A DNA stretch of 37,915 nucleotides from a virus. Taxonomy: Duplodnaviria; Caudoviricetes. Each line of letters starts with the position of its first letter. Position 1 is the first letter of the stretch. Made by a program: the position numbers and the translations under genes. The stretch is from positions 1 through 37,915 of IMG/VR virus record IMGVR_UViG_3300016476_000680; one strand, given 5' to 3'. Positions 14,949 through 36,923 of the stretch are shown here, piece by piece. Below the pieces are notes generated by a model, which had not been told where the DNA came from, made no database searches, and saw only the letters and a list, made by a program, of their open reading frames with translations.

Positions 14949-15902
14949 CTATACATTTAGACCAAATTCATGAGCATAGACGCGCAACAGCCATTTATCC
15001 CAGAATTCAGTGTCTACATGCTCAGGTAAGTTACTGTTTTCACTCAGTTTTTCAATTTCAGCTACCAAGCGTTCTAGCTCGGAACCAACTTGAGCGAAAT
15101 CTAGCTTACCCTGCTTAACTTGCTTTAGGAACTCAGTTTCCTTCAGCGGGTAGCTAAAGTCACCGTCACGATAGATATCACGAGCCTGATAACCAGCCCT
15201 CAGAGCATGCGACATAGCTTTCCAGTCTACTCCCTCGTTCTGTTCAGCCAGTTTAGCCCTGTGACCGTAACCGTCATACATCTGCTGCAAACGTTCAATC
15301 GTGTACAGAACCGTGTTAGTGCTCTGGTACATCTTGGCGTTTACCATGTAAAACTCGTTATCGTGACCTACGCTGGGGTTTGGTTTAACTTTCCACTCAG
15401 CGTATTCGCCAAAGTACACCTGATCTTTGACTTCACCAAGTGTCAGATTTTGGTCCAGTTTAGCCAGCGAGTCAATTGCTTGCTTGATATCAGCCAGCCT
15501 AGAACCCTTGACTCCATACTTTGCAGCCTGCTGTTTTACGTAACCCACAAAAGCTTTCAGGTTCTTGCTGTAAAACTTTGTGCGGTTAGCAACCAACTCG
15601 TCCCAGACAGGAGTTGCAACCTCTGGGCGAGCGCAATGCAGCATGTCGATAGCGTAAGTTTCGCCTTGTACGGCGTGCTTGATAAACTGCGGCAAGCTTA
15701 CCACTTCAGTATCAACATCACCGGCACTATTCTTGGCGTGCTCGGGACCAGTACTTGTTACGATAGTCTTGGGAAAACTGTTCAGCAACAGTTCTTCAAG
15801 AGTGGGCATAAAGATACCCTTGTAATCAACATCACTAGTGGGTGTGTTCAGACCATACAAGTGACTACCAAATTTCATGTTTACAACAGTAGGTTTTCTC
15901 AT
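14949..15902 (-). CDS. nrdC.11: nucleotidyltransferase, T4 NrdC.11-like (Pol-beta superfamily)
   Basis: FGSHLYG.NTP.SDVDYKGIF, GET.AIDMLH, QAAKYGVKGSRL, DWKAMSHA.R. Confidence 0.88.
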   Translation of the reverse strand: MRKPTVVNMKFGSHLYGLNTPTSDVDYKGIFMPTLEELLLNSFPKTIVTSTGPEHAKNSAGDVDTEVVSLPQFIKHAVQGETYAIDMLHCARPEVATPVWDELVANRTKFYSKNLKAFVGYVKQQAAKYGVKGSRLADIKQAIDSLAKLDQNLTLGEVKDQVYFGEYAEWKVKPNPSVGHDNEFYMVNAKMYQSTNTVLYTIERLQQMYDGYGHRAKLAEQNEGVDWKAMSHALRAGYQARDIYRDGDFSYPLKETEFLKQVKQGKLDFAQVGSELERLVAEIEKLSENSNLPEHVDTEFWDKWLLRVYAHEFGLNV

Positions 15903-25473: not shown

Positions 25474-25500
25474 CTTTTTGTTACCTCTTTGTTGTTAATA

Positions 25501-25655
25501 ATGTTATGAAAGTTGTAGTAGGAGTAAGACGCAACATCAACCTCCCACGGTGTACAGGTTCTTTACCCTATTGTACCCCCCGACTTTCCCTTCCAGTAGT
25601 TGCGCTTCTGTTCGGGCCATCTCGGATAACCGCTTGAATACAACTTTCATAACAT
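25501..25655 (-). ncRNA. putative structured RNA enclosed by a 17-bp terminal stem
   Basis: Perfect inverted repeat ATGTTATGAAAGTTGTA/TACAACTTTCATAACAT. Confidence 0.5.
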
Positions 25656-25667
25656 CACTAAAATTAT

Positions 25668-26520
25668 AAGGGCTGAGATTACACCCTTTACAACAGTGCT
25701 TCTAGCATTATCATAGACCTTGCGAGTCTAATTTCTCTAGATATCCACTAAAACCCTTGCGGTATCTTAGTACACCGTCAGCATCGCCGTTTAAAGTCAG
25801 GCTGTAGACTTAACACAACACACTACTCTATGCCTTATTACCCGTTGACCTTGCGAGCCATTCACAGTCGCTAAACCGTTACGAATCTTCTAGCATAAAC
25901 TGATTTCACCTTGCGAGTTACGTCAGGCTTGATTCTCTTGCGAGTCAAGCATTAGATGCTTTTCGCGTGTTGCTGGAGCAGACTTTGCATTTTAATGATG
26001 GGACTTGAACCCATAGCATTCTGTGTTAGAAGACAGATGATCTACCATTGATCTACATTGCAACCTACTGATTCGTGCTGCTCCAGTTGCTACATAAGCT
26101 TTTGGCTTACATAATACAACACGACTCGTACCTTTTGCCCCTGCAGGCTACTCAGTAGTTTTTCGCGACCAGTGTCATTTAAGCCACCAACCACTCAAAC
26201 TGCATAACAACCCTTAGACGCGACTCTTTGGATCATTACACTACCCTTTCTCATACCTATTAACAAGTTGGTTTTGTGTTGAGGTCAGCACCACCTGTTA
26301 CTCTCTGTCCGCCTGCCTTACCCTTTCGGGAGCATAAGCAGACATTCTTTCCAACACACTTGCTTCACAGTTACATCCACCGGTCTTATCAGTGAACGCT
26401 GGGTCACCCCAGTGAGCAGGCTTGCATATACGGACTCTTTCGAGCGCGGGCGTGTAGGACGCTTCCGCTTTGGGCACATCACTGTGCTTACCCTTTACAA
26501 ACATCCGAAGATGTTTGCTG
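25668..26520 (-). ncRNA. probable GOLLD RNA (giant structured ncRNA) with an embedded tRNA-like element
   Basis: About 850 nt without a credible ORF; many GCAA/GAAA-capped hairpins on the minus strand; 3' hairpin AAGGGUGUAAUCUCAGCCCUU; promoter at 26590-26617; adjacent to a tRNA array. Family assignment is from recall and ends are approximate. Confidence 0.7.
25991..26062 (-). tRNA. degenerate tRNA-Arg(TCT)-like element inside the large RNA
   Basis: D arm GATC/GATC, anticodon arm TCTGT-CTTCTAAC-ACAGA (8-nt loop), T arm ATGGG-TTCAAGT-CCCAT; only 4 contiguous acceptor pairs and no CCA. Confidence 0.6.
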
Positions 26521-26589
26521 GAGAATATGCTCCCCTTTAATTTTTAAACTTTTTAAAGAACGTTGTTGATTTCTCAACTTTATATAGCT

Positions 26590-26617
26590 ATTGTACACTA
26601 GTTTATCTTAATGTCAA
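26590..26617 (-). promoter_or_regulatory. sigma70 promoter of the large ncRNA
   Basis: TTGACA-16-TACAAT. Confidence 0.75.
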
Positions 26618-26633
26618 CACCTATCTTACCCAT

Positions 26634-27002
26634 TTAGCTAAAAGTTTTCAAAGCTTTGATATCGTCACCGATCAAGTCTTCGGGTATAGGACCAATTCCT
26701 AAACATGTAGTAGTTGGTTCATCAAATACTGTAAAACCTTTGTCAGTTACTAATCGTGTAGCACACTTATTTTCGTATGCTTTCTGCAACTCTTTTAGCT
26801 GTTCAACCGTGTCTACGACCAAGACGATTTTAAACGCATGATCGCTGATCATATACGCTGTAAGATGTTCTGGAAATTCTTTAGCTGCTAACCAGCTACA
26901 ATGCACGAACGCATGTCCAGCCTGAGCGCACATTTTGCCTCTGATACCTTTCATTTTATCGATGGCTTCTTTAGCAAATATACAGTACATTTTAACTTTC
27001 AT
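26634..27002 (-). CDS. pth2: peptidyl-tRNA hydrolase, Pth2 family
   Basis: GKMCAQAGHA, KIVL, DKGFT, TCLGIGP. Confidence 0.9.
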   Translation of the reverse strand: MKVKMYCIFAKEAIDKMKGIRGKMCAQAGHAFVHCSWLAAKEFPEHLTAYMISDHAFKIVLVVDTVEQLKELQKAYENKCATRLVTDKGFTVFDEPTTTCLGIGPIPEDLIGDDIKALKTFS

Positions 27003-27292: not shown

Positions 27293-27366
27293 TGGTTGCT
27301 CCACCTGGTTACGATCCAGGGTCTTGCGGTTATCAGCCGCATGTACTACCATTGTACTATGGAGCA
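27293..27366 (-). tRNA. trnI: tRNA-Ile(GAT)
   Basis: Cloverleaf, CT-GAT-AA, CCA; T loop ATCGTAA. Confidence 0.9.
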
Positions 27367-27370
27367 ATTA

Positions 27371-27685
27371 TTAATTTGTTAATTCACCCATAGTAACTAC
27401 TACGGGTCGAACTTGTACTAGTTTACTAAACTCTTCAAACTTCTCAAAGATGTGGTCAACTTCTGATTGAGAGAATCTTTTCGGCCATTGAGCAGGTTCG
27501 ATATCTCTGTGCCACAACATATACAGTATGTAATCTCTACTATCATCAAGATAGTACCTTTGCAGCAAACTATCAATCACTGCTGACCTAGAGTTAGCTG
27601 CGCCACGCACAGACTTAAACGGTCCTCTCAACCACTCTTTAGTCTCTACGTTGAAAATACCGTACATCTGTTGAGTAAAGTCCAT
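27371..27685 (-). CDS. hypothetical protein within the tRNA array
   Basis: 104 aa ORF filling the gap between two tRNAs. Confidence 0.65.
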   Translation of the reverse strand: MDFTQQMYGIFNVETKEWLRGPFKSVRGAANSRSAVIDSLLQRYYLDDSRDYILYMLWHRDIEPAQWPKRFSQSEVDHIFEKFEEFSKLVQVRPVVVTMGELTN

Positions 27686-27714
27686 AAACTATATCTCTGT
27701 TGTTACTGTTAAAT

Positions 27715-27789
27715 TGGAGCCCGGTGTTGGATTTTAACCAACCTAAACTAGCTTTGCAGGCAAGCGCATAGTCACTCTGCCAACCGGGC
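27715..27789 (-). tRNA. trnC: tRNA-Cys(GCA)
   Basis: CT-GCA-AA, U73, CCA. Confidence 0.88.
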
Positions 27790-27824
27790 GTAAAACTGTG
27801 TTGCTTTTCGCAACTTATAAACAT

Positions 27825-27852
27825 ATTATAGCAGATAAAAAGCTTGTGTCAA
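27825..27852 (-). promoter_or_regulatory. sigma70 promoter
   Basis: TTGACA-16-TATAAT with extended TG. Confidence 0.8.
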
Positions 27853-27871
27853 GCCTTTTTTAAAAATATTG

Positions 27872-27963
27872 TAGAGCACCTTGTAGATGATTCCCCGTTC
27901 AGACCCTTTACTAGTATGGTCACGCGATGCTTTCCTAGCACGTTTTGAGAACAAGGTGCTCTA
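27872..27963 (-). ncRNA. putative RNA cassette enclosed by a 13-bp or longer stem
   Basis: TAGAGCACCTTGT/ACAAGGTGCTCTA. Confidence 0.45.
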
Positions 27964-27973
27964 AAATACTCTC

Positions 27974-28033
27974 AGGGCAGCAGCTACTCTGCCCTTTCCC
28001 TTACCCGTCTTAGTAGCTGACAACGGCGTAAGG
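27974..28033 (-). ncRNA. putative kissing-hairpin RNA
   Basis: Two adjacent hairpins whose loops CAGCTACT and AGTAGCTG are complementary. Confidence 0.5.
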
Positions 28034-28039
28034 AGTACC

Positions 28040-28117
28040 TGGCAGACGTAGTAGGAGTTGAACCTACAACCTCGAGTTTCAGAGACTCGCGCTCTAGACC
28101 AATTGAGCTATACGCCT
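28040..28117 (-). tRNA. trnQ: tRNA-Gln(CTG)
   Basis: CGAGT-CTCTGAA-ACTCG, GCCA end. Confidence 0.88.
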
Positions 28118-28122
28118 ATAAT

Positions 28123-28611
28123 TTAGTATCTAGCGCCTTCTTGGCGATAGCGTTTGATAAAAGTCAGATAACTGCTACAAATACCAAAGCAGCTTAATTG
28201 TACTGTACTGAACAAGCTTTTGTCATCTATTTCGGGCAAGTAAACAACACTTGTATTGTTGACAGCTACAGTACCCGGAGTGATTATCTTGTTGCTTGAA
28301 GTAGTCACATTGGTTGATTCAGTATCGTTAGGGAACTGAAAGTAATTTGGATACAGTGTAAGAGATTGTGTTTGTAGCCATGCATACGCATCAGCGTTTT
28401 GCACATTTAGCCAATATCTGTTTCCTTGCAGAAACTTATCAGTTACAGGTATAGGGTTAAACTCAGTGCCAACACACAATGCGCCATCAATTCTCCAAAC
28501 ATTTACCATGCATGAAAAACCGTTTTGAAGCGCGGAACGAATTTGTGAAGGTGTGTTAGCACTTTCAAAGTTTTGTCCGTCATATACACCAAGATAAGAA
28601 ATGTAAATCAT
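28123..28611 (-). CDS. GDPD/PLC-like phosphodiesterase-fold protein, probably degenerate
   Basis: Resembles the I.HRG..ENT...GF.VE.DVW family but reads YLG and MVNVW; TAAATA upstream. Confidence 0.5.
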   Translation of the reverse strand: MIYISYLGVYDGQNFESANTPSQIRSALQNGFSCMVNVWRIDGALCVGTEFNPIPVTDKFLQGNRYWLNVQNADAYAWLQTQSLTLYPNYFQFPNDTESTNVTTSSNKIITPGTVAVNNTSVVYLPEIDDKSLFSTVQLSCFGICSSYLTFIKRYRQEGARY

Positions 28612-28624
28612 AGTGTATTTATCT

Positions 28625-28713
28625 TGGCAGTGAGGAAGGGATTTGAACCCTTGTACCTTTTACAGCGCACTGATTTCCAATCAGGCCGATTAGACCAACT
28701 CTCGCACCTCACT
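28625..28713 (-). tRNA. trnS: tRNA-Ser(GGA)
   Basis: TT-GGA-AA, long variable arm, GCCA. Confidence 0.9.
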
Positions 28714-28719
28714 ATATTA

Positions 28720-28825
28720 AACGGGATGATGTGTCTTTAGTCGGGACTCGAACCCAGTGACACGCCCCCAGCGGGCCGACTCGCAAAGTTTGGCTGCGAA
28801 AAGTTTGTTTTGCTGTATTCATCCC
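28720..28825 (-). ncRNA. Y-RNA-like sRNA with a T loop
   Basis: GGGATGA-ATACAGCAAAAC...TCATCCC-GTT; internal GGG-TTCGAGT-CCC. Confidence 0.6.
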
Positions 28826-28836
28826 AAAGTCTTTAT

Positions 28837-28910
28837 TGGTGCCCTGACCCAGAATCAAACTGGAGACTTTGCGTTACGAGGGCAATGTTATATCACTTAA
28901 CTATCAAGGC
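28837..28910 (-). tRNA. trnT: tRNA-Thr(CGT)
   Basis: CT-CGT-AA, ACCA; C-C mismatch at the base of the anticodon stem. Confidence 0.82.
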
Positions 28911-29087
28911 TTGAACCATTAAACCGATACATGTAGGGATCAGAATAACGTAGAGTGGGAGATATACTCTCTTCCACATCTTTCTATCATACTCATTTAA
29001 TTTTTCAATAGCGAGATGATAAGCTTCTTCACCTTCTTCTCGTTTAATTTTTTCTAACAATGCATGTAATGAGCTATTTGGTGTCAT
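28893..29087 (-). CDS. small membrane protein whose stop lies inside tRNA-Thr
   Basis: GAGG RBS; C-terminal TM segment. Confidence 0.55.
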   Translation of the reverse strand: MTPNSSLHALLEKIKREEGEEAYHLAIEKLNEYDRKMWKRVYLPLYVILIPTCIGLMVQALIVK

Positions 29088-29113
29088 AACAACCTCGAGT
29101 TTAATTGAATGTT

Positions 29114-29190
29114 TGGTGGATCACGGTGGGGTTTGAACCCACGACCCCAACACTGCCAGTGTTGTGCTCTCCCAACTGAGCTACGGACCC
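29114..29190 (-). tRNA. trnA: tRNA-Ala(GGC)
   Basis: CT-GGC-AG, G3:U70; one extra T bulged in the acceptor stem. Confidence 0.85.
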
Positions 29191-29196
29191 ATTGTT

Positions 29197-29282
29197 TGGC
29201 GGAGAGAGTGGGAGTCGAACCCACTGACCTGTTACAGTCTACACCTTAGCAGGGTGCCGCATTACCGTCCTGCCCCCTCTCC
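29197..29282 (-). tRNA. trnS: tRNA-Ser(GCT)
   Basis: CT-GCT-AA, long variable arm. Confidence 0.92.
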
Positions 29283-29297
29283 ATATTCTTTTTAATT

Positions 29298-29415
29298 TGG
29301 TAGTGACTCCGGGAATCGAACACCGGGACTTGTCCTTGATATGGAAGTGTGTATTGCAGTATAGATTCTGAACAGAATCGTTTTCTTACACGTTATGCCA
29401 CTTAACTAAGTCACT
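29298..29415 (-). ncRNA. CCA-ended tRNA-like RNA with a Y-RNA-like module replacing the anticodon loop
   Basis: AGTGACT/AGTCACT-ACCA, D arm and T arm; GTGTA/TACAC stem encloses GATTCT-GTTC-AGAATC-TATACTGCAA. Confidence 0.65.
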
Positions 29416-29423
29416 ATTAATTT

Positions 29424-29499
29424 TGGTATCCCTAAACGGATTCGAACCGTTGTTACCTGGCTGAGAACCAAGCGTCCTAGGCCGCTAGACGATAGGGAC
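29424..29499 (-). tRNA. trnE: tRNA-Glu(CTC)
   Basis: TT-CTC-AG, CCA. Confidence 0.9.
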
Positions 29500-29507
29500 A
29501 TCATGTT

Positions 29508-29593
29508 TGGTGCGCTAGACTGGACTTGAACCAGCACGATCTTTCAATCACTACCACCTCAAGGTAGCGTGTCTACCATTCCACCACCAGCGC
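29508..29593 (-). tRNA. trnL: tRNA-Leu(GAG)
   Basis: TT-GAG-GT, long variable arm. Confidence 0.92.
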
Positions 29594-29603
29594 GTATTAA
29601 ATT

Positions 29604-29694
29604 TGGTACCCCTAGTAGGACTCGAACCTACACACACCAATTATCTATTGCTACGGGATATAAATCCGCTGTTCTACCATTGAACTATAGGGGC
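29604..29694 (-). tRNA. trnI: tRNA with TAT anticodon (Ile) and a long variable arm
   Basis: GCGGA-TTTATAT-CCCGT, about 19-nt variable region, ACCA. Confidence 0.75.
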
Positions 29695-29701
29695 GCTAAT
29701 T

Positions 29702-29786
29702 TGGTACCTAGAGTCGGACTCGAACCGACATGCTTTATGGGCGCGGACTTTTGAGGACCGTGTGTCTACCATTCCACCATCTAGGC
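29702..29786 (-). tRNA. trnL: tRNA-Leu(CAA)
   Basis: CT-CAA-AA, long variable arm. Confidence 0.88.
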
Positions 29787-29790
29787 ATTA

Positions 29791-29943
29791 TTACTTTTTC
29801 TTTTCTTGATTCTTCTTTTCAAATTCTTTTTGAAAATCAGATTTCTTACTCCAGTCGATAGCATCCATTCCTTTTGCAAACTTATCTCTATCGCCTTTAG
29901 TGTTAGTGATTGCATCACCTGTAATATCATTTCTTGCTGTCAT
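29791..29943 (-). CDS. small hypothetical protein (50 aa, not in the ORF track)
   Basis: MTARNDITGDAITNTKG...; AGGA upstream. Confidence 0.65.
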   Translation of the reverse strand: MTARNDITGDAITNTKGDRDKFAKGMDAIDWSKKSDFQKEFEKKNQEKKK

Positions 29944-29947
29944 TAAT

Positions 29948-30112
29948 TTAATCCTGTTCTAGAATTTGGAATCTTTTTTTCTTTTGTTTTTGTTGCCTGA
30001 TGTTACAAACATCACATCTTCCATGTTGTCCAACTAAGTTGGCATCACAACAGTTGCACCAAAAAAGTTTCTTTTTCGCAGATTTTGATTTTATTCTATT
30101 CATCTTTTTCAT
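29948..30112 (-). CDS. small basic Zn-ribbon-like protein (54 aa, not in the ORF track)
   Basis: MKKMNRIK...FWCNCCD...CDVC... Confidence 0.6.
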   Translation of the reverse strand: MKKMNRIKSKSAKKKLFWCNCCDANLVGQHGRCDVCNIRQQKQKKKRFQILEQD

Positions 30113-30119
30113 ATTTGTT

Positions 30120-30197
30120 TGGTGTCCCCACCAGGACTTGAACCTGGGACCTACCCGTTATGAGCGGGGTGCTGCTGACCAACTGAGCTATAGGGAC
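30120..30197 (-). tRNA. tRNA-Met/Ile2(CAT)
   Basis: CT-CAT-AA, paired 1:72. Confidence 0.88.
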
Positions 30198-30237
30198 GTA
30201 TTAATCTTTAGATGATCATCTTATACTAAATACACAC

Positions 30238-30516
30238 ATGAGTCAACAATTATATTTTTACATCTTACTTGATCCACATAAGCCAGACTTCTGTAAAGTC
30301 GGAATAACAAAGGATCTAAAAACTCGTATAAAAGCCTATCGAACTGCTAATCCAGATTGCTCATTTTATACAACATATCCTATCGATGATAAACAACACG
30401 AGCGTAAGTTGCTAAAAGTCTTACGTGAAGCTTTCACTGTAAAGAGCGAATACGTTCACTGTAATCCACATATAGTCAACAATATTGTTTCATCATACTT
30501 CGATGATATTAACTAA
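30238..30516 (+). CDS. GIY-YIG (T5orf172/MUG113-like) nuclease-domain protein
   Basis: YFYIL...KVGIT.D...RI..Y.T.NP...E...EY; TAAATA upstream. Confidence 0.8.
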   Translation: MSQQLYFYILLDPHKPDFCKVGITKDLKTRIKAYRTANPDCSFYTTYPIDDKQHERKLLKVLREAFTVKSEYVHCNPHIVNNIVSSYFDDIN

Positions 30517-30517
30517 A

Positions 30518-30594
30518 TGGCGCACCTAGTAGGATTTGAACCTACACTATGCCGGGTTCGAAGCCCAGTTGACTATCCAGTTGCCGATAGATGC
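30518..30594 (-). tRNA. trnR: tRNA-Arg(TCG)
   Basis: CT-TCG-AA, GCCA. Confidence 0.88.
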
Positions 30595-30604
30595 ATTTTA
30601 AAAA

Positions 30605-30678
30605 TTTGTCCGGTGGGGCCATGAACCTTCCAGTCCACCGCCGGGAATTGAACCCTGTTGCCTTCCACTTCGGACAAA
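30605..30678 (-). ncRNA. small closed-stem RNA with a T loop
   Basis: TTTGTCCG/CGGACAAA closure; GGG-TTCAATT-CCC. Confidence 0.45.
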
Positions 30679-30680
30679 AT

Positions 30681-30756
30681 TGGCAGGGGATGAGGGCCTC
30701 GAACCCACGACCTCAGGAGTCAAAGTCCTGCGCTCTACCAACTGAGCTAATCCCCA
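30681..30756 (-). tRNA. trnQ: tRNA-Gln(TTG)
   Basis: CT-TTG-AC, U1, GCCA. Confidence 0.9.
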
Positions 30757-30767
30757 ATTAAATCTTA

Positions 30768-30896
30768 AACAGGATTGTTTTGGTTTCTATAACGTGCTAC
30801 CATTACACTAAATCAGTTTTACAACTGACTGCGGAATCGAACCGCTCTTCCACTTTCACAGAGTAGTAAGAAATTTTGTTTTGCTGAACCAATCCT
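30768..30896 (-). ncRNA. YrlA-type Y RNA (permuted tRNA mimic)
   Basis: Terminal stem AGGATTG/CAATCCT, CAGCAA, then T arm (GCGG-TTCGATT-CCGC), closed acceptor-like hairpin and D arm (TA-GTGT-AATGGTA-GCAC) in T-AS-D order. Confidence 0.75.
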
Positions 30897-30902
30897 AAAA
30901 TT

Positions 30903-30963
30903 AACAGGATGCACACTTTTTTTCACCAATTGAAAGTAAAGTTTTGTTTGCTGTAGGCATCCT
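30903..30963 (-). ncRNA. minimal Y-RNA-like sRNA
   Basis: AGGATGC-CTACAGCAAAC...GCATCCT-GTT. Confidence 0.6.
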
Positions 30964-30978
30964 AATTCTTTATGTATA

Positions 30979-31215
30979 TTACTCTTTATATACATGTAAA
31001 CGCAATAGATAATGGGTAGCGTCATAACGTGTTGCGAACCCATCTACTTTCACAAACCCCAATTCAGTTGGATATCTGTATACAGCAGTGTATCTATTTC
31101 TAATCTTAAAAAGCTGACCTATATACTCGTTACCTAAATAAACCACTGTGTCTTGTTCACGAATCTTATAGCGAACATCAACGACTTTTCCATCTGTACA
31201 AACTGAGTAGGGCAT
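30979..31215 (-). CDS. hypothetical protein
   Basis: 78 aa ORF with AGGT upstream. Confidence 0.6.
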   Translation of the reverse strand: MPYSVCTDGKVVDVRYKIREQDTVVYLGNEYIGQLFKIRNRYTAVYRYPTELGFVKVDGFATRYDATHYLLRLHVYKE

Positions 31216-31321
31216 TTCAAATACCTATAGTGCGTTTATTTAAGTTAGCCTTATCCTGCTACCCATATGCTCTCGTTAGAAAGCACATGATTTTTGGTGG
31301 GCATCCAAGTAAGGCTAAATT

Positions 31322-31395
31322 TGGAGCGGGCACCGAGAATTGAACTCGGGATTAAACCTTGGCAAGGTCTCGTTTTACCTCTAAACTATGCCCGC
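31322..31395 (-). tRNA. trnG: tRNA-Gly(GCC)
   Basis: TT-GCC-AA, TCCA. Confidence 0.92.
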
Positions 31396-31402
31396 ATTAA
31401 TT

Positions 31403-31478
31403 TGGCGACTCGTAGGGGTTTCGATCCCCTTACCTCAGCAGTGACAGTGCTGTGCTCTCCCAATTGAGCTAACGAGCC
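31403..31478 (-). tRNA. trnD: tRNA-Asp(GTC)
   Basis: CT-GTC-AC, GCCA; T loop ATCGAAA. Confidence 0.9.
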
Positions 31479-31550
31479 ATATAATTTGGTGGAGGACTTT
31501 CCATCCCCCTAGTCCTTCTCCAGATGCACCCAGAGCGACTTCTACATGTT

Positions 31551-31630
31551 TGGTGGAGAATGAGGGATTTGAACCCTCCTGAATATCCTCGGTGCAAGCG
31601 AGGCGACCACCCCAAGCAGTCCCATTCCCC
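31551..31630 (-). tRNA. trnA: tRNA-Ala(TGC)
   Basis: TT-TGC-type loop CTTGCAC, G3:U70, ACCA. Confidence 0.88.
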
Positions 31631-31636
31631 AATATT

Positions 31637-32317
31637 TCAAGTATGTTGTTTGATTATGTAATATGCTTTTCTTTGCCCGATTCCATAATCATTGTGTATT
31701 TTTGATACCGATTCACCGTTTAGGTATCGTTTAACTAACTCACTAATTTGATCATCTGTTAGGATGAGTGCATTGTTCGGTGTATTACCCTTCATTCTGT
31801 TACTTTGTATATTTGTTCTACACCGCTTAGAACAATATTTGTTCCGTGATGTTTTAGCACAATCGAAAGTATCTCCGCAGCAGTTACAATTTCTTGTCAC
31901 GAGAATCGATCTTCCTTTTATCCATCCTTCAGGAATTTCAGTAGGCAAAAACTTTTTTCGCTCTTCCGTAATAGGGTCATGATACCAGTTCTTTCCAAAT
32001 TGGCTATTGCTACAACCTGCTTGCGATTCTGACATTGCAGCGGCATGTCGTCTTCGTAACCACCCATATACTTTATTTGATGGTCTATTAACCGTCATCA
32101 TCATCGCCGCCATTGCTAATGCTCCATTTTTCGGATACATTTTTGTGAGCAATTGGTGAGCAATATAATGTTCTTCGGGAGTTAGCTCCACTAGATTATC
32201 AGTGTCATCGCTTCCGCCCATGCATCTAGGGACAATATGATGCGTTTCCGTATATGCTTCTAAGACCCTATATCTGCTTCTAGATATTAATTGATTGTAA
32301 TGTTTAGAGTAATCCAT
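31637..32317 (-). CDS. HNH homing endonuclease
   Basis: ETHHIVPRCMGG.D...NLV.LT.EEH..AH; C-terminal Zn-ribbon/HTH; TAAATA upstream. Confidence 0.9.
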   Translation of the reverse strand: MDYSKHYNQLISRSRYRVLEAYTETHHIVPRCMGGSDDTDNLVELTPEEHYIAHQLLTKMYPKNGALAMAAMMMTVNRPSNKVYGWLRRRHAAAMSESQAGCSNSQFGKNWYHDPITEERKKFLPTEIPEGWIKGRSILVTRNCNCCGDTFDCAKTSRNKYCSKRCRTNIQSNRMKGNTPNNALILTDDQISELVKRYLNGESVSKIHNDYGIGQRKAYYIIKQHT

Positions 32318-32346
32318 AACATTATTTATCTTTTGCAAGCAAAAAC

Positions 32347-32391
32347 CTATGCCGTGCAAGGGCATTGTGCTCCCGTTATCACTATCAGCCC
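32347..32391 (-). pseudogene. 5' fragment of a tRNA-Ala(TGC)
   Basis: GGGCTGA, D arm and ATGCC-CTTGCAC-GGCAT, then truncated just before the HNH promoter. Confidence 0.7.
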
Positions 32392-32463
32392 GGAAACTTT
32401 CTAACTTGAAACTACTATATCAAAAGCTACGATTATTGTGTAGTCTTTTGGGTAAAACAAATT

Positions 32464-32550
32464 TGGTGCTGACCACAGGATTCGAACCTGCAACGGGATT
32501 TCTCCTCCGGATTACAAAACCGGTGCTTTCAGCCATTCAGCCAAGTCAGC
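32464..32550 (-). tRNA. trnT: tRNA-Thr(TGT) with a long variable arm
   Basis: GCTGACT acceptor, TT-TGT-AA loop, about 14-nt variable arm. Confidence 0.78.
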
Positions 32551-32557
32551 ATAAAAT

Positions 32558-32655
32558 TGGTCCTGCCGTTGGGTCCCTCACCCAAGATATATCTGCGCGA
32601 TCCTGCAGACCTTCTTTATCGACTACAGGGAGGCGTCCCCGTGTTGACGACAGCA
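32558..32655 (-). ncRNA. CCA-ended non-canonical tRNA-like RNA
   Basis: CTGTCG/CGGCAG-GACCA, T-like arm TTGGG-TGAGGGA-CCCAA, two non-standard arms. Confidence 0.45.
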
Positions 32656-32661
32656 TAAAAT

Positions 32662-32738
32662 TGGTCGGAATAGTAGGACTCGAACCTACGACCCTCTGCT
32701 CCCAAAGCAGATGCGCTACCAGACTGCGCTATATTCCG
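32662..32738 (-). tRNA. trnP: tRNA-Pro(TGG)
   Basis: TT-TGG-GA, canonical. Confidence 0.93.
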
Positions 32739-32746
32739 TTTAAAAT

Positions 32747-32824
32747 TGGTAGCAGGGGAGGGACTCGAACCCCCGTAGTTTGGCTTATGAGACCAAGCTG
32801 GAACCACCTCCAGTCTACCCTGCG
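32747..32824 (-). tRNA. tRNA-fMet-like (CAT)
   Basis: CGCAGGG start with C1 unpaired; CT-CAT-AA. Confidence 0.82.
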
Positions 32825-32871
32825 TCAAAAACTTATTTAGCTGTTGAACAGTTACAACAACTTTTTTAAAT

Positions 32872-32947
32872 TGGTCCGTGCATTTATCAGGCCTACCGAG
32901 TTGTGTAGGTCACTTGCTGACTTCCCAATCAGCGAAGAGGGTCACGG
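32872..32947 (-). ncRNA. CCA-ended structured RNA
   Basis: CCGTG/CACGG-ACCA enclosing hairpins GCTGAT/GTCAGC and CCTAC/GTAGG. Confidence 0.4.
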
Positions 32948-33074
32948 CACCCTAGGAACTTATTGCACTGTATACAGACGGCCCATATATCTTTACGATT
33001 CCGTTCTCGGGGATAAGTAAAGGCTCGCAGACCCCGCTAAACACACTCTTATCTACTAGCCAAGCAAATTCTGT

Positions 33075-33159
33075 ACCATATTAAAGTACACTGTCTGGAC
33101 CACGCATAGTAGGTATCGGTCATCCCCCTACAGCTATTCACAGTGTACTTTAATATGGT
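33075..33159 (-). ncRNA. RNA cassette enclosed by a 20-bp stem that includes the tRNA-Lys ACCA
   Basis: Perfect inverted repeat ACCATATTAAAGTACACTGT/ACAGTGTACTTTAATATGGT. Confidence 0.5.
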
Positions 33160-33231
33160 GTGTCCGGTGGGCTTTGCTCCCACAACCTTCCGCTTAAGAG
33201 GCGGGTACTCTACTAATTGAGTTACGAACAC
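33156..33231 (-). tRNA. trnK: tRNA-Lys(CTT)
   Basis: CT-CTT-AA; T loop AGCAAAG. Confidence 0.8.
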
Positions 33232-33258
33232 ATGAATTTTAAATTGTAAAATAAAAAG

Positions 33259-33304
33259 ATAAATAAAAGTGTAGTTCGCGGATCGGCAAATCCCAACTAC
33301 TCTA
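33259..33304 (+). promoter_or_regulatory. late promoter plus conserved leader hairpin of the endonuclease
   Basis: ATAAATA, then GTAGTT-CGC-GGAT-CGGCAA-ATCC-C-AACTAC. Confidence 0.6.
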
Positions 33305-33325
33305 AAGCTTATGAGGAGCATCAGC

Positions 33326-34171
33326 ATGAATATTTATCAATCGCCACTTTGTTCTTGTATTATTTGTAAAGAAGTAAAATCTGCTAAGGGCATTTATACA
33401 CATTGTTTAATGCACGACCCTGTATATTATACCAAACACAGAGAAAAAGCGTTATCTGCGTCTAAGATCGCTGTTACAGCGGTCAAGGAGAGAAAAGATT
33501 CTAAAATCTCTTCAGAAATAGAGGCATATTCGCTCAATCCGTCTATATGCACACATTGCAACTCTATATTACCTTTCAGAAAGCGCAAAAACAAATTTTG
33601 TAATAACTCTTGTGCAGCATCATACAATAACAAATCAATGACAAATGAAACTAAAGAAAAAATATCAAACAAATTATCTGGAAGATCATATCCAGAAAGG
33701 AAACCATATTCAAAAATATCTTTCTGTGTAGTATGTAGTCAGTGCATTCCAAATAAAAATATAAAAACATGTTCACCTGAGTGTAGAAGTATAATTTGGT
33801 CTACACAAGCAACAGAACGAATAAAACAAAACCGAAGAAGTAATTATCGCCGAGACAAAAAATCATATCTTGAAGACTCGTTTGAAAAATGGCTTAATCA
33901 GGTAGCACCGCACATAAACTATGAACCAGAATATACTATAAGAAATCACTTAACCAAAAAATGGTACTTTGTTGACTTCTATTTTCCTGATCTAAATCTT
34001 ATCGTTGAGTTAGACGGAAAGCAACACGACAAACCCAAACACAAAGAGAGTGATATGATCAGAGACTCATATATAGTTAAACACCTTAATATACAAGTGT
34101 TTAGAATATCTCATACCGAATATCAATCAGGAACAAAATTAGAAGAAGTTAAACAGCTTCTATCTATATGA
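33326..34171 (+). CDS. putative homing endonuclease: Zn-ribbon repeats plus a C-terminal Vsr/DUF559-like nuclease
   Basis: CxxC...FC..SC repeats; E...VDFY......ELDG.QH...RD; GAGGAG RBS. Confidence 0.82.
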   Translation: MNIYQSPLCSCIICKEVKSAKGIYTHCLMHDPVYYTKHREKALSASKIAVTAVKERKDSKISSEIEAYSLNPSICTHCNSILPFRKRKNKFCNNSCAASYNNKSMTNETKEKISNKLSGRSYPERKPYSKISFCVVCSQCIPNKNIKTCSPECRSIIWSTQATERIKQNRRSNYRRDKKSYLEDSFEKWLNQVAPHINYEPEYTIRNHLTKKWYFVDFYFPDLNLIVELDGKQHDKPKHKESDMIRDSYIVKHLNIQVFRISHTEYQSGTKLEEVKQLLSI

Positions 34172-34173
34172 AT

Positions 34174-34249
34174 TGGTGGATCCGCCCGGGTACGATCCGG
34201 GAACCTCGGAGTTAAAAGCTCCTTGCTCTACCAATTGAGCTACGAATCC
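34174..34249 (-). tRNA. trnK: tRNA-Lys(TTT)
   Basis: CT-TTT-AA; T loop ATCGTAC. Confidence 0.9.
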
Positions 34250-34310
34250 GTTATTAGTTTAGTGCGATTTAACGTGCCACACTAAATCCAACAACGGACT
34301 TAATGCGACA

Positions 34311-34343
34311 CTATGATTTACCTCGTTTACTACGTTTCATCAT
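34311..34343 (-). CDS. putative 10-aa basic leader peptide MMKRSKRGKS
   Basis: AAGGAG RBS; the stop overlaps a long hairpin. Confidence 0.4.
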   Translation of the reverse strand: MMKRSKRGKS

Positions 34344-34371
34344 GTGTCTCCTTTAGACTTAAATTAAAATT

Positions 34372-34444
34372 ATAGTGTTTTGCACCATGCACGAGCTGGA
34401 GTTGAACCAGGTCGTTTGCAGACTCGAACTGCTCCGCACACTAT
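34372..34444 (-). ncRNA. closed-stem RNA with two T loops
   Basis: ATAGTGT/ACACTAT; GCAG-TTCGAGT-CTGC and CTGG-TTCAACT-CCAG. Confidence 0.55.
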
Positions 34445-34584
34445 CGGCTACTATCCGTTCACCGTCAAGTATTACTTGAAGCTATAACAGCAGGAGTTCT
34501 CTCCTCTGACACAATGAACCCTGCTTAACGCCGCAGTCTCAAAAACTTTTGTCCGCTAAGTTTCGATTGTGTTCTGCTGTAATT

Positions 34585-34662
34585 CGGCGCTCTGGACCGG
34601 ACTCGAACCGGCAATCTCCACTGTGAAGTGTGGCGCCTTAGTCCATTTTCGGCAACCAGAGC
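34585..34662 (-). pseudogene. degenerate tRNA (Glu-like, shortened anticodon loop, no CCA)
   Basis: Good acceptor, D and T arms; CCAC-ACTTCACA-GTGG; ends GCCG. Confidence 0.6.
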
Positions 34663-34681
34663 ATTAAAGTTTCTTACAGTT

Positions 34682-34759
34682 TGGTACTCCCAGGGGGATT
34701 TGAACCCACCGCTCTTCTCCGTGAAAGGGAGACGACTTAAACCTCTTGTCCATGGGAGC
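34682..34759 (-). tRNA. trnE: tRNA-Glu(TTC)
   Basis: CT-TTC-AC. Confidence 0.9.
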
Positions 34760-34776
34760 ATTAAAACTTTTACAAT

Positions 34777-34851
34777 TGGTACTCTGTAGGGGTTATGCTC
34801 CCCTCTCCTTAGGTTGAAAGCCTAATGTCCACACTAGCTGACTCACAGAGC
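34777..34851 (-). tRNA. trnE: tRNA-Glu(TTC), atypical
   Basis: CT-TTC-AA; T loop AGCATAA. Confidence 0.75.
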
Positions 34852-34923
34852 ATTAAAACTTAACTAGCCGCGAGAACTACGGCGACTAGTCTCTAAATTA
34901 GATAACTGTTTTATTACGTAGAC

Positions 34924-34995
34924 AGTTGTTGGGAGGAATCGAACCTCTAGCTCGGCGCCTAAAAGGTGAGCCCCGCCCCGGATTCCAAACTAACT
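34924..34995 (-). ncRNA. T-arm-containing RNA (GGCTC/GAGCT family)
   Basis: GGCTC..GAGCT hairpin followed by GAGG-TTCGATT-CCTC. Confidence 0.45.
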
Positions 34996-35186
34996 ACTAA
35001 GAGTGGTTGTTTAGTTCAGCTAACTCTCTGTCTGAACAAGTGAGGCTTTTTACAAGGCTCTACACTCATAACCTTGAACGTTAAGTACCAGCATCGCACA
35101 AGCTAGCAGTCTAAAGTGCTATGTTGCTATATCACTGGAGGTTAATATGTTCAGCAACATCTTTAGTCTTATCATTTAATACAGTT

Positions 35187-35215
35187 ATTGTACTATGCTT
35201 GATTTTAAAAAGCAA
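35187..35215 (-). promoter_or_regulatory. sigma70 promoter
   Basis: TTGCTT-17-TACAAT. Confidence 0.55.
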
Positions 35216-35226
35216 GCCTTTTGTTA

Positions 35227-35287
35227 AACAGGATGCACATTTTGGTTTCATTAAAAGTGAAATTGTTTTGTTTGCAGTAGGCATCCT
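35227..35287 (-). ncRNA. minimal Y-RNA-like sRNA (paralogue of 30903)
   Basis: AGGATGC-CTACTGCAAAC...GCATCCT-GTT. Confidence 0.6.
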
Positions 35288-35364
35288 AAAATCATACAGT
35301 GACGGGCCGTTCAACTCCGCTGTCTACATTCCGTTAGTATCAAAACTAACTGCTCACTGTAATT

Positions 35365-35442
35365 TGGCTGTCCCTCTTGGAATCGAACCAAGCTCTATAC
35401 TGATTAACAGTCAGTCGCGTACACCATGCTCGCTCAGGGACA
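35365..35442 (-). tRNA. trnN: tRNA-Asn(GTT)
   Basis: CT-GTT-AA, GCCA. Confidence 0.9.
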
Positions 35443-35477
35443 ATAATTCATAAGGAGTGTTTTTATAGTAGAGTCTC

Positions 35478-35550
35478 CGACGACATGACTGGAATCGAAC
35501 CAGTGACCTGCGGCGGCCTGCCGGTGCTCTACCCACTGAGCTACACGCCT
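35478..35550 (-). pseudogene. tRNA-like gene with a collapsed anticodon loop
   Basis: Canonical D and T arms; CGGC-AGGCC-GCCG; no CCA. Confidence 0.6.
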
Positions 35551-35651
35551 AACTACTACTGTGCGATATTTTAGATGCCCTAAACAGCGTTTGCATCTGC
35601 AACTTTTTAGACATGGTTGCACTAACATGTATTGCAATTCTGCAATAAATT

Positions 35652-35727
35652 TGGCGACTCGTAGGGGTTTCGATCCCCTTACCTCATGCGTGACAGGCAT
35701 GTGCTCTCCCGATTGAGCTAACGAGCC
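35652..35727 (-). tRNA. trnD: tRNA-Asp(GTC), paralogue of 31403
   Basis: CT-GTC-AC; nearly identical body with a different anticodon stem. Confidence 0.9.
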
Positions 35728-35908
35728 ATTAAAATTAAAAATCGTGATCATCTAAACTATTTCTCAAGTAGTTACAGTTTTAACCTTGCGCGGGTTACAG
35801 CATAGATCGACGCTGGACCACGACCTGAAATCGTGGATTTTTTGGGTGAGCAGGACACCCCGGCCTATATGCCTTGTTTAACGTCTATAGCACATAAAAG
35901 ACGGAGAT

Positions 35909-35994
35909 TGGAGCGGGTAAAGGGACTCGAACCCTTGTGCGACTCGCGTCTGCTTGCTTGGAAGGCAAGTGCCTGACCTCTAGGCTACACCCGC
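35909..35994 (-). tRNA. trnG: tRNA-Gly(TCC) with a long variable arm
   Basis: GCGGGTG acceptor, U73, CT-TCC-AA, variable arm GAC-GCGA-GTC. Confidence 0.85.
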
Positions 35995-36001
35995 ATTTAA
36001 T

Positions 36002-36078
36002 TGGCGCGCCTGGCAGGACTCTAACCTGCGACCCTGTGCTTAGAAGGCACATGCTCTATACAACTGAGCTACAAGCGC
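36002..36078 (-). tRNA. trnR: tRNA-Arg(TCT)
   Basis: CT-TCT-AA, GCCA. Confidence 0.9.
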
Positions 36079-36115
36079 ATAAAACTATATTTGTTAAAGA
36101 ACGATTTAGAAAGCT

Positions 36116-36144
36116 ATAATAGCTGATCACGTTCCTGTTGTCAA
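36116..36144 (-). promoter_or_regulatory. sigma70 promoter
   Basis: TTGACA-17-TATTAT. Confidence 0.6.
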
Positions 36145-36218
36145 CAAGTATTTAAAATAAGTTTGCTGGGTAGGTGCTCCAGCGCAGATCGTTTTGATGT
36201 TATCTCACTGCCCTTGTT

Positions 36219-36314
36219 TGGTGGAGTCCCTAGGAGTCTAACCTAGACGGCTATACTAAGAAGTATATTATGAAGCCTTTACAGGTCTTACCGTAACACA
36301 TTTTAACGAACCCC
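36219..36314 (-). tRNA. atypical tRNA-like gene: GTA anticodon loop with a G3:U70 acceptor
   Basis: GGGGTTC/GGACTCC-ACCA, AAGAC-CTGTAAA-GGCTT, variable hairpin TATACT/AGTATA, T arm CTAGG-TTAGACT-CCTAG; irregular D arm. Confidence 0.55.
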
Positions 36315-36320
36315 ATGTTT

Positions 36321-36414
36321 TGGCGGAAGAGGAGAGACTCGAACTCTCACGTCCTTATTCAGAACCCTCGGTTTTCAAGACCGCTGCCGCTAGGCCAACT
36401 CGGCTAACTCTTCC
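36321..36414 (-). tRNA. trnS: tRNA-Ser(TGA)
   Basis: CT-TGA-AA, long variable arm. Confidence 0.9.
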
Positions 36415-36428
36415 ATATTCTTCATGAC

Positions 36429-36506
36429 TGGTGAGAGTGGTGGGGAATGATCCCACGTACTCCAGTTTATAAGACTGGCGCTTGTCACCAACTCAGCTAC
36501 ACTCTC
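36429..36506 (-). tRNA. trnI: tRNA-Ile(TAT)
   Basis: CCAGT-CTTATAA-ACTGG; T loop ATCATTC. Confidence 0.82.
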
Positions 36507-36570
36507 AGTGCAGTCGCATTAAAACCTTGTCCCTCATGATTACCCAGGTGGGGACTAACCTGAATTTAAT

Positions 36571-36649
36571 TTCAGTCTAGTGGACTTGAACCACCAAGCT
36601 CGCCAGAGCCTGCGACCGTGCATCCGCTTGTACTTCGCGTTTGACTGAA
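36571..36649 (-). ncRNA. T-arm-containing RNA (GGCTC/GAGCT family)
   Basis: TTCAGTC/GACTGAA closure, GGCTC-TGGC-GAGCT, GTGG-TTCAAGT-CCAC. Confidence 0.45.
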
Positions 36650-36653
36650 AATT

Positions 36654-36729
36654 TGGCGCGCATAACGGGAATCGAACCCGCCGCAGATAGATCGACAGTC
36701 TAGTATCACCCCCAGGTGGACTTATGCGC
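36654..36729 (-). tRNA. trnD: tRNA-Asp(GTC), divergent
   Basis: CT-GTC-GA, GCCA; unusual D region. Confidence 0.72.
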
Positions 36730-36737
36730 ATTGTATT

Positions 36738-36827: not shown

Positions 36828-36834
36828 ACAATTT

Positions 36835-36917: not shown

Positions 36918-36923
36918 ATAATT

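What the first reader, a model, noticed from the sequence alone, without database searches (positions are those of the whole stretch)
25668..26520. Probable GOLLD giant RNA with a degenerate tRNA-Arg-like cargo
Seen: about 850 nt of non-coding, hairpin-dense sequence (repeated CGCAAG and CGAAAG loops on the minus strand) with its own promoter. An internal tRNA-like element (25991-26062) has an 8-nt anticodon loop, a broken acceptor stem and no CCA, and is bracketed by a CTGGAGCAG/CTGCTCCAG-type stem. Established: GOLLD RNAs occur beside phage tRNA clusters, often carry a tRNA in a variable region, and assemble into RNA-only multimeric cages of unknown function. Inference: the embedded element is kept for its elbow shape rather than for decoding.
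Basis: partly seen in the sequence, partly recalled or inferred. Interest (0 to 1): 0.72.

Follow-up and report, generated by a model that had tools for sequence, protein, structure and literature searches.

The report
Phage GOLLD RNA with tethered pseudo-tRNA
A phage carries a member of the known giant GOLLD RNA family whose central linker holds a tRNA look-alike without a chargeable end; related phages keep its tRNA fold but change its anticodon, so it likely stays tied inside a predicted RNA cage as a shape mimic rather than reading codons.

Summary
Confirmed: a GOLLD RNA on the minus strand (Rfam RF02032, 219.8 bits against a cut-off of 150), conserved over about 26537-25670, behind a sigma-70-like promoter and downstream of 33 phage tRNA genes. 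The embedded element (26062-25990) is not a decaying tRNA-Arg but a clade-wide design. In 127 parsed homologous linkers, acceptor pairs 4-7 are kept, pairs 1-3 pair at chance level, and 2 have CCA. A blind covariation scan recovers the tRNA tertiary contacts 15:48 and 13/46. The anticodon loop changes often, even between near-identical alleles, so 'Arg' is nominal. The 'bracketing stem' is a core GOLLD helix, also present without a tRNA. RNA-library contigs of close relatives span the element. Most likely it is a tethered tRNA-shape mimic in the cage interior; its partner is unknown. tRNAs and pseudo-tRNAs inside GOLLD are published, and this scan found the same module before on other DNA (e1-5643811). 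New here are the comparative statistics and a natural allele series. New member of a known kind; interest 0.38.

The parts
26590..26617 (-). Sigma-70-like promoter (TTGACA-16-TACAAT); predicted start near 26583, leaving an A/U-rich leader of about 45 nt
   Evidence: 11 of 12 consensus; TTGACA boxes lie shortly upstream of the first hairpin in several homologs by eye (L124, L137, L150, L165, L185); not shown to fire
26128..26537 (-). GOLLD 5' domain (outside the Rfam model); first hairpin 26535-26520
   Evidence: homology profile; 83 of 122 consensus pairs have a two-sided change in 20 aligned sequences
26454..26458 (-). CCUAC hairpin loop of the 5' domain, predicted to pair with GUAGG just 5' of the tRNA-like element
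   Evidence: compensatory homologs L070, L181, L188, wobble in L312; hairpin not located in L001
25670..26127 (-). GOLLD conserved 3' region, including the variable linker
   Evidence: Rfam RF02032 219.8 bits; stems recovered by blind covariation
26078..26086 (-). CUGGAGCAG, 5' strand of the core helix that closes the linker
   Evidence: 98.1% of cells paired, 5 of 9 pairs with two-sided change in 71 sequences
26064..26068 (-). GUAGG, 5' anchor of the linker (partner of CCUAC)
   Evidence: part of my search motif, so its own conservation is partly by construction
25990..26062 (-). tRNA-like domain, positions 1-73: 4-bp acceptor (26059-26056 with 25997-25994), D arm, anticodon arm, 5-nt variable loop, T arm; no CCA
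26025..26032 (-). 8-nt anticodon loop CUUCUAAC; a 7-nt allele CUCAAAC occurs in near-identical phages
25987..25988 (-). GC at the 3' end of the linker, at tRNA positions 75-76; predicted partner of loop L20 (CGCAAG 25915-25910), matching intermolecular bridge B7 of env-38
   Evidence: by-eye match to supplement table 2 of PMC12286853; one compensatory homolog among 53
25973..25981 (-). CUGCUCCAG, 3' strand of the core helix
25850..25875 (-). Two GC-bearing loops (UUUAGCGA 25875-25868, CGCAAG 25855-25850) matching the self-kissing bridges B8 and B9 of env-38
   Evidence: by-eye match; GC in the first loop in 52 of 53 homologs

Best explanation
This is a phage GOLLD RNA whose linker holds a tRNA-shaped domain with only four acceptor pairs and no CCA, which likely stays covalently tied inside the predicted RNA cage and would serve there as a shape mimic that host tRNA-binding factors grip, not as a decoding tRNA. 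Steps: (1) SHOWN: GOLLD membership; cloverleaf; acceptor cut to pairs 4-7; anticodon not fixed; tertiary core contacts covary. (2) INFERRED from env-38 (PMC12286853): the RNA forms a homo-oligomeric cage with the linker inside; 3'-domain bridge motifs B6-B10 have counterparts here. (3) INFERRED: both ends of the element are pinned to different places of the scaffold (GUAGG to the CCUAC loop; the GC at positions 75-76 to loop L20), so the outer acceptor is open. This leaves a 9-bp rather than 12-bp acceptor/T stack without RCCA, which should make it a poor substrate for RNase P and useless to synthetases, so the chain is not cut twice and the domain is not released. (4) INFERRED, untested: selection keeps the L-shaped body so that each cage carries one tRNA-like surface per chain, able to hold shape-reading partners (ribosome sites, tRNA-modifying or tRNA-cutting enzymes) late in infection. 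The module is optional and is exchanged between phages as a cassette.
For: Acceptor pairs 4-7 pair in 117, 121, 124, 125 of 127 (above all 2000 shuffles); pairs 1-3 in 59, 46, 65 of 127 (shuffle means 59, 55, 59). CCA in 2 of 127 and, by eye, in none of the 20 linker elements among 53 GOLLD-like loci anchored only on the 3' end, against 31 of 33 free tRNAs here. In 71 representatives 97.4% of cells pair; 22 of 27 pairs have two-sided changes; 0 of 500 shuffles reach the covariation score; slid controls 32-44% paired. Blind MI/APC on 53 sequences makes 26048/26015 (15:48 Levitt pair; 0.85, 90% paired) and 26050/26017 (13/46 triple; 0.91) each other's best partners; 15:48 can pair in 122 of 127 despite at least 15 changes on a tree with 48 parsed tips. 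The elements are their own lineage: median 70% identity to the nearest free tRNA, 95% to the nearest embedded one; U15:A48 in 19 of 127 vs 2 of 183 free tRNAs. Anticodon: 19 triplets among 112 7-nt loops, 15 of 127 loops of 8-9 nt; at least 26 triplet changes on the tree, 0 losses of the D-loop GG. Among 27 near-identical pairs, 3 swapped the whole cassette; in the other 24 the loop differs at 6 of 170 sites, the rest of the cassette at 5 of 1438, D and T loops at 0 of 338, the body at 71 of 11256. Contigs in 4 of 4 RNA runs (3 studies) cross the element with both flanks. Three GOLLDs carry a circularly permuted tRNA in the same slot, another form that cannot be released whole (L275, L312, L408). 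No separate RNA was detected for the Mycobacterium GOLLD pseudo-tRNA by Northern blot (PMC6582537, passages).
Against: No binding partner is shown; step 4 has no direct test. The module is dispensable: 9 of 150 linkers in this clade are short or reduced, 33 of 53 in the 3'-anchored set have no tRNA call, and env-38 forms its cage without one. 11 linkers changed both elbow loops, so the elbow is not always needed; my parser required a T-loop-like pattern, so T-loop conservation among the 127 is partly by construction. The anticodon loop is not free either: U33 119 of 127, purine 37 117 of 127, GUU and UUU 69 of 112, which a pure elbow role does not explain. 16 of 127 can form 7 acceptor pairs (many via G-U), and a distal helix across a bulge is slightly above shuffled partners (3.87 vs 3.67 bp); in the window UUGCA could pair with UGCAA, which might restore an RNase P site. 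RNA contigs cannot show strand, ends or level and may come from DNA, so they do not exclude partial cutting. The loop-rate excess rests on 3 events. The 5'-cap bridges B1-B5 were not mapped. Sequences are related, so counts overstate independent events.
Confidence: 0.5

Rival explanations
1. Folding scaffold only: a captured tRNA was tamed into a compact, nuclease-resistant plug that keeps the linker from misfolding; nothing outside needs to recognise it.
For: Short or reduced linkers replace it in 9 of 150; cages form without it (PMC12286853); tertiary contacts add stability anyway; a sub-lineage changed the elbow loops.
Against: Any hairpin would do, yet 139 of 150 keep a direct cloverleaf and 2 a permuted one; U33 and purine 37 are kept; D and T loops unchanged at 338 of 338 sites in close pairs.
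Confidence: 0.2
2. Decoy for host anticodon nucleases: the cage carries many copies of a bait anticodon arm that soaks up tRNA-cutting defence enzymes and spares the phage's tRNAs; the loop changes as hosts change.
For: The loop is the fastest-changing part and cassettes are swapped; its tRNA-like U33 and purine 37 are kept; commonest triplets are GUU, UUU, UCU, CUU and UGA. PrrC cuts tRNA-Lys(UUU), and phage tRNAs are proposed to evolve against such nucleases (PMC10264068, results section).
Against: 3.5% per site from 3 events may be just the neutral rate; the common triplets may reflect ancestry and uneven sampling; the linker faces the cage interior; 8-9 nt loops would be poor bait; the same pattern could mean escape from cutting rather than bait.
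Confidence: 0.15
3. Processing signal: RNase P reads the elbow and nicks the RNA 5' of the element (like a t-element or mascRNA; both recalled), giving a two-piece GOLLD held by the core helix.
For: Elbow kept; RNase P measures from the elbow along the acceptor/T stack (PMC4919913, passages); a bulged distal helix can be drawn in the window; permuted relatives keep a 7-bp acceptor plus ACCA.
Against: Only 9 stacked pairs are conserved and RCCA is absent; the anticodon arm is not needed for this yet is kept; RNA contigs cross both junctions in 4 of 4 runs.
Confidence: 0.12
4. Stored precursor of a working tRNA (for example a four-base or frameshift-reading tRNA-Arg) that is released and given CCA later ('inhibited storage', suggested in PMC12990946).
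For: Passes the Rfam tRNA cut-off (51.4 vs 29); 2 of 127 relatives have CCA, one of them with 7 pairs; tRNAs in GOLLD are proposed as cargo (PMC12286853, PMC12990946).
Against: Acceptor pairs 1-3 at chance; the loop differs between 99% identical alleles; a complete tRNA-Arg(UCU) is encoded separately.
Confidence: 0.03

Closest known systems
GOLLD RNA, Rfam RF02032; env-38 14-mer cage (Kretsch et al. 2025, PMC12286853: GOLLD section, passages and supplement 1 part 2 read)
   Same: Full-length match to the 3'-region model; about 870 nt; next to a phage tRNA array; same helix closing the linker; counterparts of bridges B6-B10 by eye.
   Different: env-38 has a disordered tRNA-less linker (497-538); here the slot holds a structured tRNA-like domain. 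The 5' domain was not mapped onto env-38; oligomer size unknown.
Mycobacterium GOLLD with a pseudo-tRNA or tRNA-Phe in J13/15 (PMC6582537, passages read; Morgado 2020 seen only as cited in PMC12990946 and PMC12286853)
   Same: tRNA-like element in the same linker, called a pseudo-tRNA; no separate expression detected.
   Different: Whether those elements share the 4-bp acceptor or vary their anticodon was not tested; they are not in my sets.
GOLLD with a circularly permuted tRNA in the linker (L275, L312, L408 here; earlier scan notes such as e1-5744966, e1-6466544)
   Same: Same slot and flanks; tRNA body that cannot be released whole; anticodon loop differs among the three.
   Different: The permuted form keeps a 7-bp acceptor and ACCA and could be nicked; the window's form is in normal order and has neither.
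tRNA-like processing or mimic domains (t-elements, mascRNA, YrlA; recalled, not tested)
   Same: tRNA shape used for something other than decoding.
   Different: As recalled, these mostly keep the acceptor/T half and alter the anticodon arm; this element keeps the anticodon arm and cuts back the acceptor.

Membership tests
GOLLD RNA (RF02032) | Score above the Rfam gathering threshold over the conserved 3' region | tested here: met
   219.8 vs 150 bits, model 1-416
GOLLD RNA (RF02032) | Large (often over 800 nt), with a structured, less conserved 5' region | tested here: met
   homology 26537-25670; 83 of 122 pairs with two-sided change
GOLLD RNA (RF02032) | Phage or prophage context beside tRNA genes | tested here: met
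   33 free tRNA genes at 27293-37330 on the same strand; tail, virion and endolysin PHROG hits
GOLLD RNA (RF02032) | Variable linker closed by a conserved helix | tested here: met
GOLLD RNA (RF02032) | Expressed as an RNA | tested here: inconclusive
   Near-identical contigs in 4 RNA runs lie almost only on GOLLD while DNA runs also cover the upstream flank; contigs cannot show strand, ends or level, and the runs were found through this stretch
GOLLD RNA (RF02032) | 3'-domain bridge motifs of the cage (B6-B10) | tested here: met
   by-eye match to supplement table 2 of PMC12286853, residues counted by hand; homolog counts
GOLLD RNA (RF02032) | 5'-cap bridge motifs (B1-B5) | not tested
   5' domain not mapped onto env-38
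GOLLD RNA (RF02032) | Assembles into an RNA-only cage | not testable with these tools
   needs mass photometry or cryo-EM
Functional tRNA | 7-bp acceptor stem | tested here: not met
   4 contiguous pairs; pairs 1-3 at chance in 127 homologs
Functional tRNA | Encoded or addable 3' CCA | tested here: not met
   positions 74-76 read UGC; CCA in 2 of 127 homologs vs 31 of 33 free tRNAs; later addition not testable
Functional tRNA | 7-nt loop with a stable anticodon | tested here: not met
   8 nt here; differs between alleles
Functional tRNA | D, anticodon and T stems with tertiary core (U8, A14, 15:48, G18G19, 13-22-46, T-loop) | tested here: met
ROOL / OLE RNA | Match to their Rfam models | tested here: not met
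   no match at gathering or at E<=10

The most novel reading that the evidence does not exclude
GOLLD cages of this phage clade are multivalent carriers of an uncleavable, unchargeable tRNA bait: each chain displays a swappable anticodon arm that traps host tRNA-cutting defence nucleases, and the fast-changing loop and cassette swaps record an arms race. That would give GOLLD its first function, as an RNA-only anti-defence particle.
Probability: 0.15. Interest if true: 0.8.

Novelty: new member of a known kind. Interest (0 to 1): 0.38.

Why it matters
GOLLD function is an open question, and the literature I could read treats the linker tRNA as possible cargo or as a pseudo-tRNA. The comparative data narrow this for one large phage clade: the tRNA fold is under selection, charging and release are not, and the anticodon is exchangeable. 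They also give a natural test series in one scaffold: 8-nt and 7-nt loop alleles, swapped cassettes, elbow-altered, tRNA-less and permuted linkers. The locus itself is an ordinary member of a known family with a known feature.

Tried and rejected
Assembly error in the 8-nt loop: rejected (L356, X16, X2, X8). Four-base or amber decoding: rejected, no acceptor end and the loop is not kept; no free tRNA with a CUA anticodon in the window. The 68-aa ORF 26504-26298 inside the 5' domain has no Pfam match and homologs have indels there: treated as spurious. Recent copying from free tRNA genes: not supported (6 of 127 were closer to a 'free' tRNA, and that control set of 281 included the 2 embedded CCA-bearing elements L258 and L337). 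blastn against 50,697 cultured phage records: no match, so no cultured host or phage is at hand. The genome scan gave 9 loci; of 6 checked with Rfam, 2 were GOLLD (L366, L367). The scan for more permuted linkers gave 17 loci, 2 GOLLD, 1 permuted; a pattern over the 415 loci held gave 0. Two viral scans for the downstream 163-nt element gave 0 loci and 25 loci, none reported by nhmmer. Uncovered flanks in RNA runs are not taken as proof of silence. Papers: Morgado 2020 (PMC7549688) and the original GOLLD description (Weinberg 2009) were not held, so anything they or their supplements say about acceptor truncation is unseen. Searches 'GOLLD+tRNA', 'GOLLD RNA' (22), 'GOLLD+phage+tRNA-like' (46, 0 papers), 'GOLLD+nanocage+linker' from 2025 (82) and 'GOLLD+permuted' (91) listed no paper whose title or abstract start describes a truncated-acceptor design; subscription papers are not covered. 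The GOLLD alignment file and covariation sheet in the PMC12286853 supplements were not read.

Full report
1. Observation. Rfam matches GOLLD (RF02032) at 26127-25670 on the minus strand over the whole model, 219.8 bits against a cut-off of 150, and a tRNA model at 26062-25990, 51.4 bits. No ROOL or OLE match appears. The model covers only the 3' region; homology to 126 long loci runs from about 26540 to 25670, and 83 of 122 consensus pairs of the 5' part show two-sided changes in 20 aligned sequences. A promoter-like site lies at 26617-26590 and no terminator-like site was found. The window is a phage fragment (tail, virion and endolysin hits) with 33 free tRNA genes upstream on the same strand. 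The run that may be its source is a freshwater metagenome.

2. The embedded element. Positions 1-73 run 26062-25990. Acceptor pairs 4-7 form, the loop is CUUCUAAC (8 nt), and positions 74-76 read UGC. Of the 33 free tRNAs, 31 end in CCA, 28 have 7 acceptor pairs and 32 have a 7-nt loop. The 8-nt loop recurs in L356 and in runs X16, X2 and X8.

3. Homologs. Three pattern scans gave 359 loci; with the window, 251 of 360 carried the linker's upstream motif, giving 151 distinct linkers with both anchors. My parser read 127 as cloverleaves; of the 24 others, by eye 12 are tRNA-like with an altered T-loop (11 of them also lack the D-loop GG), 9 are short or reduced, 2 are circularly permuted tRNAs and 1 is not GOLLD. 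This set is biased to the window's clade. Rfam confirmed GOLLD in 10 of 10 loci checked and 5 of 10. In a set anchored only on the GOLLD 3' end, 20 of 53 distinct loci had a tRNA call in the linker (profile seeded with the window, so not a family-wide frequency).

4. What is kept. Acceptor pairs 4-7 pair in 117-125 of 127, above all 2000 shuffles; pairs 1-3 pair in 59, 46 and 65 of 127 against shuffle means of 59, 55 and 59; CCA occurs in 2 of 127. In 71 representatives (of 125, clustered at 90%), 97.4% of cells pair, 22 of 27 pairs have two-sided changes, and slid controls pair at 32-44%. A blind mutual-information scan of 53 sequences pairs position 15 with 48 and position 13 with 46, the Levitt pair and a core triple of the tRNA L shape (naming of these contacts is from my knowledge). 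15:48 can pair in 122 of 127, with at least 15 changes on a tree of 57 GOLLD bodies, 48 with a parsed element. The elements are far from free tRNAs (median 70% vs 95% to each other; U15:A48 in 19 of 127 vs 2 of 183), so the covariation was probably not just inherited from fresh tRNA copies.

5. What is not kept. The 112 seven-base loops show 19 triplets, and 15 of 127 loops are 8-9 nt; the triplet changes at least 26 times on the tree while the D-loop GG is never lost among parsed tips. Among 27 near-identical pairs, 3 have swapped cassettes; in the other 24 the loop differs at 6 of 170 sites (3 events), the rest of the cassette at 5 of 1438, D and T loops at 0 of 338 and the body at 71 of 11256. 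The window's own close relatives show the same: X5, X15, X18 and X20 read CUCAAAC, and X7 has a different cassette, its listed differences clustered at 25995-26046. The loop is still tRNA-like: U33 in 119 and purine 37 in 117 of 127, GUU and UUU in 69 of 112. These data cannot tell relaxed from diversifying selection.

6. How it sits in GOLLD. The bracket CUGGAGCAG/CUGCUCCAG covaries and also closes tRNA-less linkers (L005, L224) and that of env-38, so it is core GOLLD. In env-38 the linker is disordered and lies inside a 14-mer cage (PMC12286853). Counting residues by hand in supplement table 2, bridges B6-B10 have counterparts here: CAAAA 26104-26100; GC 25988-25987 with loop CGCAAG 25915-25910 (env-38 GA with UC; one compensatory homolog among 53); GC loops at 25875-25868 and 25855-25850; and 25761-25756. 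GUAGG just 5' of the element likely pairs with the CCUAC loop at 26458-26454: L070, L181 and L188 change both sides, L312 has a wobble, and the hairpin was not located in L001. Both ends of the element thus seem pinned to the scaffold, which would explain the open outer acceptor (inference).

7. Expression. Four RNA runs from 3 studies each hold a contig that crosses the element with both flanks (384-551 nt; 4-15 other letters). Cover is confined to GOLLD except one low-depth contig at 26820-27007 in X15, while DNA runs cover the upstream flank. This fits an uncut transcript but does not prove it: contigs show no strand, ends or level and may stem from DNA.

8. Mechanism. Best reading (0.5): a tethered tRNA-shape mimic. 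RNase P measures from the elbow along the acceptor/T stack and pairs with the 3' end (PMC4919913, passages); a 9-bp stack without RCCA should resist it and cannot be charged, so the domain would stay in the cage and present an L-shaped surface to shape-reading factors. The partner is unknown; a ribosome pull-down with GOLLD is mentioned in PMC12286853. Rivals: inert folding plug (0.2), decoy for anticodon nucleases (0.15; background PMC10264068), RNase P nicking signal (0.12), stored working tRNA (0.03). Against the best reading: the module is optional, 11 linkers altered the elbow, and a bulged distal helix can be drawn in the window.

9. Novelty. tRNAs in the GOLLD linker are published (PMC12286853, PMC12990946; passages and GOLLD section read), as is a pseudo-tRNA without separate expression (PMC6582537, passages). 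This scan noted the same module (e1-5643811) and the permuted form (8 notes) on other DNA. I found no paper describing the 4-bp acceptor, tertiary covariation or allele-level anticodon change in searches, but two key papers were not held. Verdict: new member of a known kind, interest 0.38.

Noticed in passing
window 25496-25658 (minus strand), about 10 nt after the GOLLD 3' end: Optional 163-nt structured RNA-like element with a long terminal stem (z -6.4), absent in runs X2, X5, X8 and present in X7. One homolog, L245 274-405, lies upstream of a GOLLD in the same orientation; 11 of 42 consensus pairs change on both sides. No Rfam match. Uncatalogued as far as tested.
   Followed up: partly
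L312 930-1032, L275 930-1036, L408 about 1519-1620: Circularly permuted tRNA-Leu-like body in the GOLLD linker with a 7-bp acceptor, ACCA and compensatory acceptor changes; anticodon loop differs among the three. Already noted by this scan on other DNA.
   Followed up: partly
window 26634-27002 (minus): Peptidyl-tRNA hydrolase PTH2 gene (Pfam PF01981, E 8.5e-18) directly upstream of the GOLLD promoter, with its own promoter-like site at 27060-27033. It is partly replaced or interrupted in some related contigs.
   Followed up: no
L125, L142, L160, L210, L211, L219, L251, L281, L289, L316, L317 (linkers): Linkers in which the D-loop GG and the canonical T-loop are both altered while all arms remain: a natural elbow-altered control.
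   Followed up: partly
L258 822-893 (-), L337 337-409 (+), L367 1236-1308 (-): Linker elements that keep CCA (L258, L337) or ACCU (L367) after a longer acceptor; L258 has a UUA (ochre-type) triplet. Possibly recent insertions or releasable forms.
   Followed up: no
window 34586-34662 and 35479-35550 (minus): Two free-standing tRNA genes without encoded CCA; the first has a 6-nt anticodon loop.
   Followed up: no
window 14949-15902 (minus): RlaP-family nucleotidyltransferase (PF10127, RNA repair pathway) in the same tRNA-rich phage.
   Followed up: no
window 31637-32365 (-) and 33311-34171 (+): Two HNH or homing endonuclease genes inside the tRNA array; possible drivers of the exchange seen in this region (untested).
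   Followed up: no
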